From Geobacter sulfurreducens PCA (GTDB lineage: Bacteria; Desulfobacterota; Desulfuromonadia; Geobacterales; Geobacteraceae): a stretch of DNA of 32,000 nucleotides. Numbering within the stretch: position 1 is the first letter of the stretch; every line of letters starts with the position of its first letter. A program made the position numbers and the translations under genes. The stretch lies in NCBI RefSeq assembly GCF_000007985.2, contig NC_002939.5:2280001-2312000 (forward strand), in the 5' to 3' direction. Below, one piece after another: positions 1 through 4,203 of this stretch. The notes beneath the pieces were generated by a model. It did no database searches. It was not told where the DNA came from and saw only the letters and a list, made by a program, of their open reading frames with translations.

Positions 1-1337
1 CGCCGGAAGCGGATAAAGCTCACAAGAGGCCCGTCGGCGCTCCCGACGCGGACTTCAAGCGCCTGCAACGTCGCTCCCGTAATGTCCAGCCGGTAGGTCG
101 AGTTCGCCAGATCAAGGGCTGCAGCAGATGCACACCGTTTCCCCCGCGGCGTGGTGACCACCGTCTCGATGTTCGGCGGCGACAGAACGGCCTTGGCTAC
201 GTCAACGAGGCCGTAACCATAGTAGATGTCCCTGCCCATTTCACCCAGGTCCCGGGCGGCTGCCGCAAGTCGTTGCCTGACCTCGTCGGCAACGGAGCGG
301 TTACCGTTGGTGTCGGTGGTGCCGGCCGAGATGAGAAGCGCCGCCGCACCGGTGACATGGGGTGCGGCCTGCGATGTGCCGAAGTTGATGCGGTAGCCGC
401 CGCCGATCGCCGTGGAATAGATATTGTGCCCCGGTGCGGCCAATTCGACCTGGGGACCGTAACTGGAAAACGTTCCAAGCGTGTCGTCCTGGTAGGTGGC
501 GGAAACCGCCACGACCGAATCGAAAGCGGCGGGATAGAGTACGGCCCCCGGCGAGAAATTGCCGGCCGAAGCCACCAGCACGATTCCCGATCGATAGGCC
601 AGATCGCAGACATCCTTGAGCGCCTGGGAGAACTCCATGCTGCCGAAGCTCATGTTGACGACCTGCATCCGGTTCTCGATGGCCCACTCGATGCCGGCGA
701 TAATGTCGCTCAACTCTCCGCCGAGGCCGCCGTTAAGCACCTTGACCGCATAGAGCTCCGCTGCGGGCGCGACGCCGACCACACCGGTACCGTTGTTGCG
801 GGCGGCGATGATCCCGGCCACGTGGGTGCCATGGCTGAGGGAGTATGCGTCGTCCATGGGATCGTTGTTGTCTGCTACAAAGTTGTACCCCCCCTTGTAG
901 TTGTCCTTCAAATCGGGATGCGTGTAATCAATGCCCGTATCGAGCACTGCCACCCGGACCCCCGCGCCGGTGATGCCGGCCGCCGCAACCTGGTCGGCAC
1001 CGATGTGCTGCGCGCCCCACGCTGCGGCATACTCCTCCGGCGAAGCCGCGGCCGGTTCAATGGACGAAAGCACGAAGTCCGTCTCCACGTAGGCAACGTC
1101 GGGATCTTTCTTCAGGCGCTCGATCTCTTCTTCGGACAGGGTTGCCGATATGGCGTTTACCGCAGAGTGCGTCCTCTTGACGCGACCGCCGTGCCGATAG
1201 ACCTTCTCTTTGTGGCGAACGTCCCTTTTTTCCACCGTGGAGCGAAATCCTACAATGACCTTCCTGTCGGCGGCAAAAGCGTCACCCAGAGGAGGCAGCA
1301 GGATAAAAAGAGCCGTAACGGCGAGCAGATACCTCAT
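1..1337 (-). CDS. ozpA: Secreted subtilisin-like (peptidase S8) serine protease; N-terminus complete, C-terminus runs off the left edge. OzpA-like OmcZ-processing protease by position.
   Basis: Absent from the ORF track because it has no stop in the window. Hand translation of the reverse strand from ATG at 1337 gives MRYLLAVTALFILLPPLGDAFAADRK (signal peptide). An I9-propeptide-like stretch follows (KVIVGFRSTVEKRDV...EIERLKKDPDVAYVETD). The S8 triad motifs are VAVLDTGID (Asp), SHGTHVAGIIAA (His) and NFGTSQAAPHVTGAAALL (Ser). The frame stays open to base 1. It lies 121 nt downstream of the octaheme cytochrome on the same strand. The gene symbol rests on synteny recall only. Confidence 0.88.
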   Translation of the reverse strand, partial: MRYLLAVTALFILLPPLGDAFAADRKVIVGFRSTVEKRDVRHKEKVYRHGGRVKRTHSAVNAISATLSEEEIERLKKDPDVAYVETDFVLSSIEPAAASPEEYAAAWGAQHIGADQVAAAGITGAGVRVAVLDTGIDYTHPDLKDNYKGGYNFVADNNDPMDDAYSLSHGTHVAGIIAARNNGTGVVGVAPAAELYAVKVLNGGLGGELSDIIAGIEWAIENRMQVVNMSFGSMEFSQALKDVCDLAYRSGIVLVASAGNFSPGAVLYPAAFDSVVAVSATYQDDTLGTFSSYGPQVELAAPGHNIYSTAIGGGYRINFGTSQAAPHVTGAAALLISAGTTDTNGNRSVADEVRQRLAAAARDLGEMGRDIYYGYGLVDVAKAVLSPPNIETVVTTPRGKRCASAAALDLANSTYRLDITGATLQALEVRVGSADGPLVSFIRFR

Positions 1338-1416
1338 GGTGCACGTATCCCTTCACGTTCGACGATGGTGAATCACATCGCGAATGCATGTAAATGATGT
1401 CTGGGGAGGAGATGGA

Positions 1417-1441
1417 GGGCAGGGGAACGAATCCCCTGCCC
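1417..1441 (-). terminator. GC-rich hairpin between the cytochrome and protease genes (atypical or partial terminator, or an RNA-stabilising hairpin)
   Basis: Perfect 10-bp stem GGGCAGGGGA / TCCCCTGCCC with a 5-nt loop. It starts 18 nt past the omcZ stop codon in minus-strand sense. No U-tract follows, so it is not a canonical intrinsic terminator. Confidence 0.3.
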
Positions 1442-1458
1442 CGTTGGTCGGAAAGGTA

Positions 1459-2880
1459 TTACCGTTTGACTTTCTTCGGAGCCGCCAGGATTTTGCCGGA
1501 GAGCGGACCGTTGATGGTTTTTACGGTCACGTAGCCGTTGGTTGCAAAGTCCGGGCTGGTGGCAACCACCTTGGTGTCGCTCCAGGAAATGACGTTTGCC
1601 TGGGTGGTTCCGGCGTACACACCGATACCGGCGTCGTACTCGGAGCTCGGTGCCGGTCCGAAACCGGTGCCGGTAATGGTAAGGGTCTTGCCAGTCGCAA
1701 GGGTGGCGGAGGCAATGATCCGCGCCGGCGCGACGGTCAGCTTGGCAAGGTTGCTGACCTTGTTGGCCTTGGTGATGCGGAGCTCGTAGACGCCTTCAAC
1801 GAGGGCGGGTACGGACACCTTGATCTCGCTTTCGGTGACCGAGAAGGGAGTGAGTGTCAGGCTCGTGCTGCCGCTGACGAGCGCAACAGTGGGCTGATAG
1901 GTGGTCACGCCGTCGGGTCCGACGTTGACGAAGCTGGAGCCGACGATGGTCAGGACGGCTTCCTTGCCCGCGGTGACCGTGTAGCTGCTCTGGCCGTTGA
2001 TGGCGGGCACGGTGGCATTGGTGTAGGGCGAGGAATTACCGAACCAGGACCAGTGGCAGCCCTGGCAGTCCCAGTTGTTGCCGATGTGGCCCCAGCCCAG
2101 ATCCTCCAGCCCCGGCTTGACCGTGCCGAGGTTGGCGGCATTGGGGCTGTCCTTCTGGATATTGTGGAGCGAGTTCACGCCGTGGCAGACCTCGCACTGG
2201 CGGATCGGTACATTGGAGGACGTATTGTGGCAGAGGTTGCAGTCGGTGATGCCGGTGCCGTGGTGAGTATCCTGGTTGCTGAAGATCGGGCGGACCGTAT
2301 TGGTCTTCGGATCGATGGCGTTGGGTGCGGCCTGGTGGCATGCTTCGCAGCCCTGAACGATAACAACATTGCCATCCGTAGCGGTTACAGACCTGCCGCT
2401 CGGCATCGGAGTGACGGAGCTTGCGCTGTAGGTCGGAATGTAGTGGCCGTCAAGCGGGTTGTCGATGAAGTTGCCGTGGCAGTACTTGCAGTCCTTGGCA
2501 ACAGCGGCGGGAGAGGTGTGGTGCGGAGTCTGGGTGTGGCAGTTGAAACAGTTTCTGAAATCCTGGAAGGTAAAACCGCCCGAGCCGTCGGGAACCATGA
2601 CGTGGCAACCGGTGGCAAGGGTCGGGGGGACAGTGCCGGAGGTATTGATGCAGCTTGCCGGCGGCGTAACCGTGTTGATCAGGGCGTGATGCTGCTGGAC
2701 GAGCACCGTGTCGCTGACGTGACACTCGAGACAGTCGGCTTTGGTCAGGTTGGGAAACTTGGTATCGTAGATCCCCAGGAACTGGTTTACCGGCGGGGGC
2801 GGAACAGCTGCACCCACCATTGCTGCGCCGGTTAAGACAACGGCTGCGAGCGATGCGCCAATCAGTACCTTTTTCTTCAT
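1459..2880 (-). CDS. omcZ: Octaheme outer-surface c-type cytochrome, OmcZ-type (473 aa precursor)
   Basis: ORF-track entry 1459..2931 starts at a TTG. I trimmed it to ATG at 2880, giving MKKKVLIGASLAAVVLTGAAMVGA (signal peptide) with purine-rich AAGGAG/AAAGGA just upstream (2881-2897). There are seven CXXCH motifs (CLECH, CFNCH, CKYCH, CEACH, CNLCH, CEVCH, CQGCH) and one CX14CH (C-INTSGTVPPTLATG-CH), so 8 predicted hemes. The C-terminal ~170 aa carries two IPT/TIG-like signatures (GKEAVLTIVGSSF, GKTLTITGTGFG). Confidence 0.92.
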   Translation of the reverse strand: MKKKVLIGASLAAVVLTGAAMVGAAVPPPPVNQFLGIYDTKFPNLTKADCLECHVSDTVLVQQHHALINTVTPPASCINTSGTVPPTLATGCHVMVPDGSGGFTFQDFRNCFNCHTQTPHHTSPAAVAKDCKYCHGNFIDNPLDGHYIPTYSASSVTPMPSGRSVTATDGNVVIVQGCEACHQAAPNAIDPKTNTVRPIFSNQDTHHGTGITDCNLCHNTSSNVPIRQCEVCHGVNSLHNIQKDSPNAANLGTVKPGLEDLGWGHIGNNWDCQGCHWSWFGNSSPYTNATVPAINGQSSYTVTAGKEAVLTIVGSSFVNVGPDGVTTYQPTVALVSGSTSLTLTPFSVTESEIKVSVPALVEGVYELRITKANKVSNLAKLTVAPARIIASATLATGKTLTITGTGFGPAPSSEYDAGIGVYAGTTQANVISWSDTKVVATSPDFATNGYVTVKTINGPLSGKILAAPKKVKR

Positions 2881-3186
2881 TCCTTTCTGCTCCTTTCTTG
2901 TGAAGACTCCATTATGAAACATTACATTCAAAGCGATTGACGTATTCCTTCCTCCTTGCCACCTCCTTTCGGCATGTCATGTCCCCTCACTCTGGCAAAT
3001 TCAATGCATGGTTCTGCGACTAAAAGGCGCTGCATCGGACAACCGCAGCAGGACGCATACACATTGACCGGTAGACCCGCATGTCTCTGCGTCCGGCGAT
3101 GCGCAGGCCGGAATGGTCTTCGGGCAGATTTTTCAGATGGTACCTGGCTGTGTTCAGGGGGCGAGCAGGGCCGGGATATCGCATCA

Positions 3187-3214
3187 CATATATCATTAAG
3201 TAGGATAAACACAA
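3187..3214 (-). promoter_or_regulatory. Candidate sigma70 promoter for omcZ (extended -10)
   Basis: Minus-strand reading: TTGTGT (3214-3209), 16-nt spacer ending in TGa, then TATATG (3192-3187). It sits exactly at the AT-rich/GC-rich boundary and implies a ~300-nt leader. This is a motif match only. Confidence 0.25.
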
Positions 3215-4034
3215 CTGTGTACTGTAGCTATTCAGAGCTTTTTGTCAACATACTTTTAAAGGCCATTTTAACGTTCAGCAACAAATTAGCAACACACATA
3301 CTTGCAATCCCGCCAGACAAGAATTTGACGTTCTCTTCCGCCAAGCTCGCCTGATACGCTATTTTACTGCATATAACTAGCAGCGACAGACGAGCAGCAC
3401 CTATCTGACCGGATCAAGTTGGTCAATTTTACGTCAATTGACTGTCGTCACCGTGAAATAGCCAGACCCTTAAAGGCGGCACTTGCGACTGAGTCATTAC
3501 CAAACTTACATGAAACAATGAAAACACATCATGTTACATTTAATTAATATATTCAACTACTACCAACAACCATATCCTCTAATGTTAACACTATCTCAAA
3601 ATTGCAAGCGTCGAGCCGAAATTTTTGATCCAATGGAAGGCATATGGTGTCATCCCAGGCGATTTGATGAGTCACAACAGGGTCAGTCCGAATCTCATGC
3701 GCAATTTCCCTAACTTCAGTTTGAAAATTGCACCTGATATTTTTTTTGCGATCTCAGCTGCCTGATTCTCGAAAATCAGTCCAACTACCGATCATGAATA
3801 CATAATTTCGTTTTATCCACGATTCGCCCGTAAATTCAGAGTATTAGGACTACCCTTCGTATCCTCGCTGTTAGTCGTTCGAGCGAGACAGCATAATGGC
3901 GGTGTACGCTTCGAGGCCACCTGCAGGCGTAAACTATTGTTTTAGTGATATTTATATGTATTTTACCTCTTGTTTGCCCATCTAATCTCTTCTATAGTTT
4001 AGTAAAAGAAAGCAACGCAAAGGAGAAAAGAGCC

Positions 4035-4187
4035 ATGAAATGCCCTATCTGCAACGATCACACGGGAATCGCCATTGATATGCACTCTGACGGCTATGCC
4101 GATAATCTGCTGGAATGCACCACCTGTGGTGCGATCTGGATTCAGGAATTTGAAGGGATTGTTCTGCTCAACAAGAAGGTTGCGTAA
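4035..4187 (+). CDS. Small (50 aa) zinc-ribbon protein, function unknown
   Basis: ORF-track entry 3945..4187 trimmed to ATG at 4035, which has AAGGAG at 4020-4025 (9-nt spacing). The product is MKCPICNDHTGIAIDMHSDGYADNLLECTTCGAIWIQEFEGIVLLNKKVA. Its two CxxC pairs (CPIC ... CTTC) are typical of a 4-Cys zinc ribbon. It is convergent with rodA. Confidence 0.6.
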   Translation: MKCPICNDHTGIAIDMHSDGYADNLLECTTCGAIWIQEFEGIVLLNKKVA

Positions 4188-4200
4188 GGCGGGCCGCCTT
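4186..4200. terminator. Short hairpin between the convergent stops of the zinc-ribbon ORF and rodA
   Basis: AAGGC-GGGCC-GCCTT (5-bp stem) fills the 16-nt gap between the TAA at 4185-4187 and the rodA stop at 4204-4206. It is weak and has no T-tract. Confidence 0.2.
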
Positions 4201-4203
4201 CTC

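What the first reader, a model, noticed from the sequence alone, without database searches (positions are those of the whole stretch)
1..2880. OmcZ-type octaheme nanowire cytochrome with a CX14CH site and IPT/TIG pro-domains, paired with its S8 maturation protease
Seen:
- A 473-aa secreted protein carries 7 CXXCH plus one CX14CH (C-INTSGTVPPTLATG-CH), followed by two IPT/TIG-like beta domains.
- A secreted S8 protease lies 121 nt downstream on the same strand. It has a signal peptide, a propeptide and an Asp/His/Ser triad.

Established (from memory, not verifiable here): this heme arithmetic and gene pair is what has been reported for Geobacter sulfurreducens OmcZ (GSU2076) and OzpA (GSU2075). 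The ~50-kDa OmcZ-L is cut by OzpA to the ~30-kDa OmcZ-S. OmcZ-S polymerises into highly conductive extracellular cytochrome filaments in anode biofilms.

Inference: the removed part is the IPT/TIG region, acting as an assembly-blocking pro-domain.

This is the most remarkable system in the window, but I believe it is already described. Its regulatory surroundings are not (see the following findings).
Basis: partly seen in the sequence, partly recalled or inferred. Interest (0 to 1): 0.8.

Follow-up and report, generated by a model that had tools for sequence, protein, structure and literature searches.

The report
Known OmcZ nanowire cytochrome and its protease
This stretch is the already well-studied Geobacter sulfurreducens gene pair omcZ/ozpA: an eight-heme cytochrome that becomes a conductive extracellular filament once its neighbouring protease cuts off its C-terminal half.

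Summary
Window 1459..2880 (-) encodes a 473-aa protein with 7 CXXCH motifs plus C77-X14-C92-H93 and two C-terminal IPT/TIG domains. An S8 protease gene with a signal peptide, an I9 propeptide and D133/H169/S322 starts 121 nt downstream. The window edge cuts it at residue 445 of 485.

The cytochrome is 100% identical over all 473 residues to the sequence deposited for the OmcZ filament structure 8D9M. Residues 25-282 equal the processed form in 7LQ5. Published GSU2076/GSU2075 primers match exactly. Window 1-2931 is base-for-base identical to a complete 3.7-Mb genome record (CP002031.1).

Published work held here states that OzpA cuts the 50-kDa form to the 30-kDa form. It also states that the C-terminal part hinders filament assembly, and that purified OzpA plus the 50-kDa form makes nanowires in vitro.

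In 120 relatives all 16 heme cysteines and 17 histidines are conserved wherever the position is present. The CX14CH loop is optional: 72 of 119 have plain CXXCH, as already reported. All 10 related genome loci keep the protease next door.

One small extra is a strong GC hairpin between the two genes, present in all 11 loci. Verdict: already known; low discovery interest.

The parts
1459..2880 (-). omcZ coding sequence (473 aa plus stop). This is the precursor of the octaheme nanowire cytochrome OmcZ (GSU2076).
   Evidence: 100% identity over 473 aa to PDB 8d9m_A. The ATG at 2880 is preceded by AAGGAGCAGAAAGGA.
2809..2880 (-). Signal peptide, residues 1-24.
   Evidence: The processed chain 7lq5_A starts at A25. 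eLife 2022 models the protein from P27 and treats residues 1-26 as the signal peptide.
2035..2808 (-). Heme domain, equal to OmcZ-S (residues 25-282), the filament subunit. It holds all 8 heme sites and all 17 histidines.
   Evidence: Identical to 7lq5_A, 258 aa. The calculated mass with 8 hemes is 32.6 kDa. All 16 Cys and 17 His are conserved in 121 family sequences wherever the position is present, apart from one H120P.
2602..2652 (-). Heme-2 attachment site C77-X14-C92-H93, the atypical CX14CH.
   Evidence: eLife 2022 places this loop in the subunit-subunit interface. In relatives the spacing is X2 in 72, X14 in 24, X13 in 10 and X11 in 13.
1462..2034 (-). C-terminal pro-region (residues 283-473). 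It consists of a short variable linker that contains the reported cleavage point (after FGN282 or SS284), then two IPT/TIG Ig-like domains.
   Evidence: Pfam TIG x2. AF2 model with pLDDT 94.7 and two beta sandwiches. Foldseek top matches are MET/plexin IPT domains. The region is absent from both solved filaments. A C-terminal region is kept in every relative, about 190-215 aa in nearly all.
1416..1442 (-). Intercistronic stem-loop GGGGCAGGGGA-ttcgt-TCCCCTGCCCT. It has 11 pairs (10 Watson-Crick and one G-U), a dG of about -24 kcal/mol and no U tract, and it starts 19 nt after the omcZ stop codon.
   Evidence: An uninterrupted 12-18 bp GC-rich hairpin lies 20-43 nt after the stop in all 10 homologous loci. 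Its role is inferred, not shown.
1..1337 (-). ozpA (GSU2075), residues 1-445 of 485. It has a signal peptide, an I9 propeptide (about residues 25-95), an S8A subtilisin catalytic domain (about 106-385) and the start of a C-terminal extension. The last 40 residues lie outside the window.
   Evidence: Pfam Peptidase_S8 1e-58 and Inhibitor_I9. Subtilisin E with its propeptide matches at E 3e-76 over residues 23-383. The window part is identical to the first 445 aa of the 485-aa gene next to omcZ in CP002031.1.
372..941 (-). Span holding the catalytic residues of OzpA: D133 (939-941), H169 (831-833), oxyanion N260 (558-560) and S322 (372-374).
   Evidence: Motifs LDTGID, HGTHVAG, SAGN and GTSQAAP. 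All four residues are invariant in the 10 neighbouring proteases of related loci.

Best explanation
This is the omcZ-ozpA gene pair of Geobacter sulfurreducens, the first two genes of a conserved cluster: omcZ, ozpA, a SurA-like prolyl isomerase and a giant Ig-repeat protein. OmcZ is made as a precursor with a signal peptide and receives eight c-type hemes, seven at CXXCH sites and one at C77-X14-C92-H93. This gives the roughly 50-kDa form, OmcZ-L. OzpA is a secreted subtilisin made with an I9 propeptide. It cuts OmcZ-L in the short variable linker just after the last heme motif, at about FGN282/SS284. The cut removes the two IPT/TIG domains. The remaining roughly 30-kDa heme domain, OmcZ-S, polymerises into conductive filaments used in anode biofilms. 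The sequence anatomy, the identity to the solved subunit and the conserved gene pairing were shown here. The cleavage, the block on assembly by the C-terminal part and the in vitro assembly are taken from papers. The suggestion that the hairpin between the genes lowers protease expression relative to the subunit is my inference only.
For: Identity: 473/473 to 8d9m_A and 258/258 to 7lq5_A. Published primers match exactly. There are zero mismatches over window 1-2931 to CP002031.1, and 445/445 to the adjacent 485-aa S8 protein. Anatomy: 7 CXXCH plus CX14CH, TIG x2, and a two-domain Ig/IPT model with pLDDT 94.7. The protease has an S8 triad and an I9 propeptide. Calculated masses with 8 hemes are 52.0 and 32.6 kDa, which fit the 50- and 30-kDa forms. 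Family: 10 of 10 related genome loci have the S8 gene directly downstream on the same strand, and the prolyl isomerase and Ig-repeat gene follow wherever the next genes could be read. All heme Cys and His are conserved in 121 sequences wherever the position is present. Literature: OzpA processes the 50-kDa form to the 30-kDa form, and the Ig domains are missing from the filament. The C-terminal domain hinders filament formation, and ozpA mutants lack nanowires. Purified OzpA plus OmcZ50 gives nanowires in vitro. The part after the cleavage site is called the 'self-inhibitory part'. The two genes are co-transcribed.
Against: Nothing found here contradicts this explanation. There are three limits. 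The primary papers (Kai 2021, Gu 2023, Inoue 2010) are not held in the library, so the experimental claims are cited through papers that report them. The exact cleavage residue is not settled: 282 in 7LQ5 against 284 in the eLife 2022 paper. The last 40 residues of OzpA are outside the window.
Confidence: 0.97

Rival explanations
1. The C-terminal IPT/TIG pair is not only a steric block on polymerisation. It may also have a positive role, such as keeping the octaheme domain soluble, guiding export across the outer membrane, or docking OzpA or the Ig-repeat protein of the cluster. This would add to the main explanation rather than replace it.
For: The region is kept in every one of 120 relatives, at about 190-215 aa in nearly all. 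It has residues invariant in 58 aligned sequences: G314, P358, G363, K371, S376, G404 and W433. That is more constraint than a simple bulky cap would need. The cluster also encodes a large Ig-repeat protein of unknown role.
Against: Purified OzpA plus the 50-kDa form is enough for filament formation in vitro. The fourth gene was reported as not required. No experiment found here assigns an export role to the domain.
Confidence: 0.3
2. The S8 protease is a general extracellular subtilisin that lies next to omcZ by chance and has no dedicated maturation role.
For: Its catalytic domain is an ordinary subtilisin. It matches subtilisin E, BPN' and Carlsberg at E 1e-58 to 3e-76. No NCBIfam model specific to OzpA exists.
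Against: The pairing is kept in 10 of 10 related loci whose cytochromes are only 52-59% identical to OmcZ. The literature reports loss of processing in ozpA mutants and direct cleavage in vitro.
Confidence: 0.03
3. The long ORFs on the opposite strand (273..1397 + and 1384..2835 +) are the real genes.
For: They are long, at 374 and 483 aa.
Against: They have no Pfam match. The minus-strand products are identical to a protein with a solved structure and to a canonical subtilisin. Long antisense ORFs are expected in DNA that is 60-65% GC.
Confidence: 0.01

Closest known systems
OmcZ (GSU2076) of Geobacter sulfurreducens, cryo-EM filament structures PDB 7LQ5 and 8D9M
   Same: The protein is identical over all 473 residues. 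It has the same CX14CH at C77/C92, the same FGNSS processing region and the same C-terminal Ig/IPT domains.
   Different: Nothing differs. This is the same gene.
OzpA (GSU2075), the subtilisin-like OmcZ protease
   Same: It has the same position 121 nt downstream. It matches the published 2075RT-R primer. It is identical over 445 aa to the 485-aa neighbour of omcZ in a complete genome record.
   Different: Only the first 445 of 485 residues fall inside the window.
OmcS and OmcE cytochrome filaments of Geobacter
   Same: These are also extracellular polymerised multiheme c-type cytochromes.
   Different: According to the eLife 2022 paper they have a different fold and heme arrangement. They use inter-subunit histidine coordination, which OmcZ lacks. 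No protease-removed pro-domain is described for them in the papers read here.
Subtilisin E / BPN' with I9 propeptide (PDB 3WHI and others)
   Same: OzpA has the same propeptide plus S8A catalytic domain architecture and the same D/H/N/S catalytic residues.
   Different: OzpA has an extra C-terminal extension of about 100 aa, conserved among its orthologues, and a dedicated substrate.

Membership tests
OmcZ nanowire cytochrome family | Eight c-type heme attachment sites in the N-terminal domain of about 260 aa | tested here: met
   7 CXXCH plus CX14CH. All 16 Cys and 8 proximal His are conserved in 121 family sequences wherever the position is present.
OmcZ nanowire cytochrome family | Full-length sequence similarity to the subunit of the solved OmcZ filament | tested here: met
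   473/473 to 8d9m_A and 258/258 to 7lq5_A.
OmcZ nanowire cytochrome family | Distal histidines for bis-His ligation of all hemes within one subunit | tested here: met
   The heme domain holds 17 His. Nine are non-motif His, and all are conserved in relatives apart from one H120P. The ligation geometry itself comes from the literature.
OmcZ nanowire cytochrome family | C-terminal tandem Ig/IPT pro-region after a short linker that follows the last heme motif | tested here: met
   Pfam TIG x2. AF2 model with pLDDT 94.7 and Foldseek IPT/Ig matches. A C-terminal region is present in all 120 relatives.
OmcZ nanowire cytochrome family | Atypical CX14CH at heme 2 | tested here: met
   It is present here. 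It is not family-defining, because 72 of 119 relatives have CXXCH at this site. This agrees.
OmcZ nanowire cytochrome family | Proteolytic conversion of the 50-kDa form to the 30-kDa form, and polymerisation into conductive filaments | not testable with these tools
   Literature only. The calculated masses of 52.0 and 32.6 kDa are consistent with it.
OzpA-type S8 maturation protease | S8A catalytic residues Asp/His/Ser plus the oxyanion Asn | tested here: met
   D133, H169, N260 and S322 are invariant in 11 sequences. Peptidase_S8 E 1e-58.
OzpA-type S8 maturation protease | Signal peptide and I9 propeptide (secreted zymogen) | tested here: met
   Inhibitor_I9 E 4e-7. The alignment to pro-subtilisin E starts at residue 23. 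The signal peptide was judged by eye from the sequence (hydrophobic N-terminus ending AFA|A).
OzpA-type S8 maturation protease | Encoded immediately downstream of an omcZ homologue on the same strand | tested here: met
   121-nt spacer here. The arrangement holds in 10 of 10 related loci.
OzpA-type S8 maturation protease | Complete coding sequence | tested here: not met
   The ORF runs off the window start. 445 of 485 residues are present. This is a limit of the window, not a pseudogene.

The most novel reading that the evidence does not exclude
The strong GC-rich stem-loop just after the omcZ stop codon (1416-1442) has a counterpart in all 10 related loci, even though the sequences have diverged. 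It may be a conserved read-through attenuator or a protector of the mRNA 3' end. Either role would set a high ratio of subunit to protease within one operon. I found no description of it in the papers read here, but I did not search the literature for it specifically.
Probability: 0.4. Interest if true: 0.2.

Novelty: already known. Interest (0 to 1): 0.08.

Why it matters
The system itself matters. OmcZ filaments are the conductive matrix of Geobacter anode biofilms, and they are being engineered as protein electronics. For a genome scan, however, this is a re-identification of a gene pair that already has solved structures, a characterised protease and in vitro reconstitution. Its value here is as an anchor for interpreting the neighbouring regulatory findings in the same window.

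Tried and rejected
- **Rfam scan.** A scan of the whole window at gathering thresholds gave 0 matches, so no known riboswitch or sRNA lies near omcZ.
- **NCBIfam.** There is no model for the cytochrome. For the protease only sub-threshold hits to other S8 families appeared, such as mycosin at 194 bits against a 278.75-bit cut-off, so none of those names apply.
- **Genome scan.** The genome-contig scan returned 10 relatives at 52-59% identity but not G. sulfurreducens itself. The exact-sequence look-up then found the protein in complete genomes.
- **Primary papers.** Kai 2021, Gu 2023 and Inoue 2010 could not be opened. Their results are cited through eLife 2022, a 2025 review, Nat Commun 2024 and a 2026 preprint.
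- **Terminator scan.** The consensus scan did not call the intercistronic hairpin, because it lacks a T run. It is therefore not a canonical intrinsic terminator.
- **Antisense ORFs.** The ORFs at 273..1397 and 1384..2835 have no Pfam match and were rejected.
- **Variable heme-2 spacing as a possible new point.** It is already published: 15 of 146 clusters were reported as atypical, and a subset of Borg homologues lacks the motif.
Full report
**1. What is in the sequence**

The minus-strand ORF 1459..2880 translates to 473 residues plus a stop. It has 16 cysteines, all of them in heme-attachment motifs. Seven are CXXCH motifs, starting at C50, C111, C131, C178, C214, C229 and C272. One is C77-INTSGTVPPTLATG-C92-H93, that is CX14CH. 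Pfam reports two IPT/TIG stretches (E 3e-11) and cytochrome c7/c3 matches.

The ORF could extend to a TTG at 2931. However, the ATG at 2880 follows a good ribosome-binding sequence and gives exactly the deposited 473-aa protein.

The next minus-strand ORF starts 121 nt downstream at 1337. It carries Peptidase_S8 (E 1e-58) and Inhibitor_I9. It aligns to pro-subtilisin E from residue 23 to 383 (E 3e-76). It has D133, H169, N260 and S322 in the canonical subtilisin motifs.

This ORF runs off the window start, so it is incomplete there.

**2. Identity**

- The cytochrome is 100% identical over 473 residues to chain 8d9m_A. Residues 25-282 are 100% identical to 7lq5_A, a 258-residue chain.
- The eLife 2022 paper on the OmcZ filament gives residue numbers that fit this sequence exactly: the loop between C77 and C92, H93, FGN at 280-282 and FGNSS to 284.
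- The primers used in 2009 to test co-transcription of GSU2076 (omcZ) and GSU2075 match without mismatch at 1585-1604 (-) and 1058-1077 (+).
- An exact-sequence look-up finds the protein in complete genomes of about 3.7 Mb. Window 1-2931 has no mismatch to CP002031.1.
- In that record the protease gene encodes 485 residues. The 445 residues in the window are identical to its N-terminal part.

The window therefore holds omcZ and 92% of ozpA from G. sulfurreducens.

**3. The C-terminal region**

I modelled residues 283-473 with an alignment of 57 relatives. The model has mean pLDDT 94.7 and consists of two beta sandwiches.

The region is absent from both solved filaments. Calculated masses with eight hemes are 52.0 kDa for residues 25-473 and 32.6 kDa for residues 25-282. 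These fit the 50- and 30-kDa forms. They also fit the 51.986 kDa measured for a tagged 50-kDa form.

**4. Mechanism, and what is shown by whom**

The sequence anatomy, the identity and the conserved synteny were shown here. The following points come from the literature:

- OzpA processes the 50-kDa preprotein to the 30-kDa octaheme form.
- The part after the cleavage site is called self-inhibitory.
- Purified, self-matured OzpA converts the purified 50-kDa form to the 30-kDa form, and filaments form in vitro.
- omcZ and GSU2075 are co-transcribed.

The exact cut site is not settled: residue 282 in 7LQ5 against residue 284 in the eLife 2022 paper. In my alignment the cut falls in a short variable linker between the conserved WSW-x-G-N segment and the conserved VP that opens the first IPT domain.

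**5. Family survey**

A genome scan gave 10 full-length relatives at 52-59% identity in Geobacteraceae and Desulfuromonadales genomes. All 10 have an S8 protease directly downstream on the same strand, at 51-54% identity to OzpA and with the catalytic residues intact. Wherever the following genes could be read, they are a protein of about 320 aa and a very large protein. In the two loci scanned with Pfam these are a SurA-like PPIase and an Ig-repeat protein (He_PIG, MBG_3, Big_9). The same layout is present in G. sulfurreducens. This matches the published 'three-gene operon plus a repetitive fourth gene'.

A protein search gave 164 relatives at E <= 1e-10. The 120 listed were aligned with the window protein, giving 121 sequences. 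All 16 heme cysteines, all 8 proximal histidines and 9 further histidines are conserved wherever the position is present, apart from one H120P.

The spacing at heme 2 varies: CX2CH in 72, CX14CH in 24, CX13CH in 10 and CX11CH in 13. Heme 1 also varies: CX2 in 99, CX5 in 16, CX4 in 2 and CX6 in 1.

So the cysteine pair is conserved but the 14-residue loop is a lineage-specific insertion. The optional nature of the loop is already reported.

**6. Small extra observation**

An 11-pair GC-rich stem-loop lies 19 nt after the omcZ stop codon, at 1416-1442, with a dG of about -24 kcal/mol and no U tract. Every one of the 10 related loci has an uninterrupted 12-18 bp GC-rich hairpin 20-43 nt after the homologous stop (dG -21 to -33). 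The stem sequences differ between loci. Since the genes are co-transcribed, my inference is a read-through attenuator or 3'-end stabiliser that favours the subunit over the protease. This is untested, and I did not search the literature for it specifically.

**7. Things excluded**

- Rfam finds nothing in the window.
- The long plus-strand ORFs overlapping both genes have no Pfam match and are GC-driven artefacts.
- NCBIfam has no model for OmcZ, and only sub-threshold hits for the protease.

**8. Verdict**

The system is already known in structural and biochemical detail. Discovery interest is low. The hairpin and the motif-spacing survey are minor additions.

Noticed in passing
window 1416-1442 (-); L001-L010, 20-43 nt after each omcZ-homologue stop codon: A strong GC-rich stem-loop without a U tract lies between omcZ and ozpA. 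It is present in all 11 loci even though the stem sequences differ (dG -21 to -33 kcal/mol). It could be a read-through attenuator or 3'-end stabiliser that sets the subunit-to-protease ratio.
   Followed up: partly
window 2881-4203: About 1.3 kb upstream of omcZ holds no gene apart from one 50-aa ORF. Much of it (about 3150-4200) is AT-rich, at 39-45% GC against about 60% in the flanking genes. A sigma-70-like TTGACA-16-TACAGT site on the minus strand lies at 3248..3221, about 340 nt before the omcZ start. Rfam finds nothing here.
   Followed up: no
window 4035-4187 (+): A small 50-aa ORF (MKCPICNDHTG...CTTCG...) with two CxxC pairs is called as a gene in the matching genome records. It has only weak zinc-ribbon Pfam hits (E about 0.004). 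It sits between rodA and the omcZ upstream region and is divergent from omcZ.
   Followed up: no
family alignment of 121 OmcZ relatives (P0001-P0120 plus the window): Heme 1 also shows non-canonical spacing in some relatives: CX5CH in 16, CX4CH in 2 and CX6CH in 1. Thirteen relatives at about 41-48% identity, including proteins named from Geobacter pickeringii, G. hydrogenophilus and Geobacter sp. AOG1, have CX11CH at heme 2.
   Followed up: partly
L006 575-5777, L008 558-5781, L009 549-5771, L010 304-5688: In four related loci a 23-heme cytochrome of 1400-1800 aa lies just upstream of the omcZ homologue. In three of them (L006, L008, L009) a protein of about 250-300 aa, which has no Pfam match in L006, lies between the two. 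In G. sulfurreducens and in L001 the upstream neighbours are mreC-mreD-mrdA-rodA instead.
   Followed up: no
L012 11016-17375 (beyond the window start): Downstream of ozpA in G. sulfurreducens lie a 321-aa PPIC-type prolyl isomerase and a 1779-2005-aa protein made of He_PIG, Big_9 and MBG_3 Ig-like repeats. Related loci carry the same two genes. The 2026 preprint reports that the large protein is not required for filament formation, so its function is open.
   Followed up: partly
P0034 (479 aa, from a 3.73-Mb contig, named G. sulfurreducens by its source): A protein labelled G. sulfurreducens is only 52% identical to OmcZ. It has IPT/TIG domains and CX13CH at heme 2. It may be a divergent-strain orthologue or a paralogue such as GSU1334, which the eLife 2022 paper mentions as having a similar predicted fold.
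   Followed up: no
window 273-1397 (+) and 1384-2835 (+): Long antisense ORFs of 374 and 483 aa overlap ozpA and omcZ. They have no Pfam match and are an artefact of GC-rich coding DNA.
   Followed up: yes
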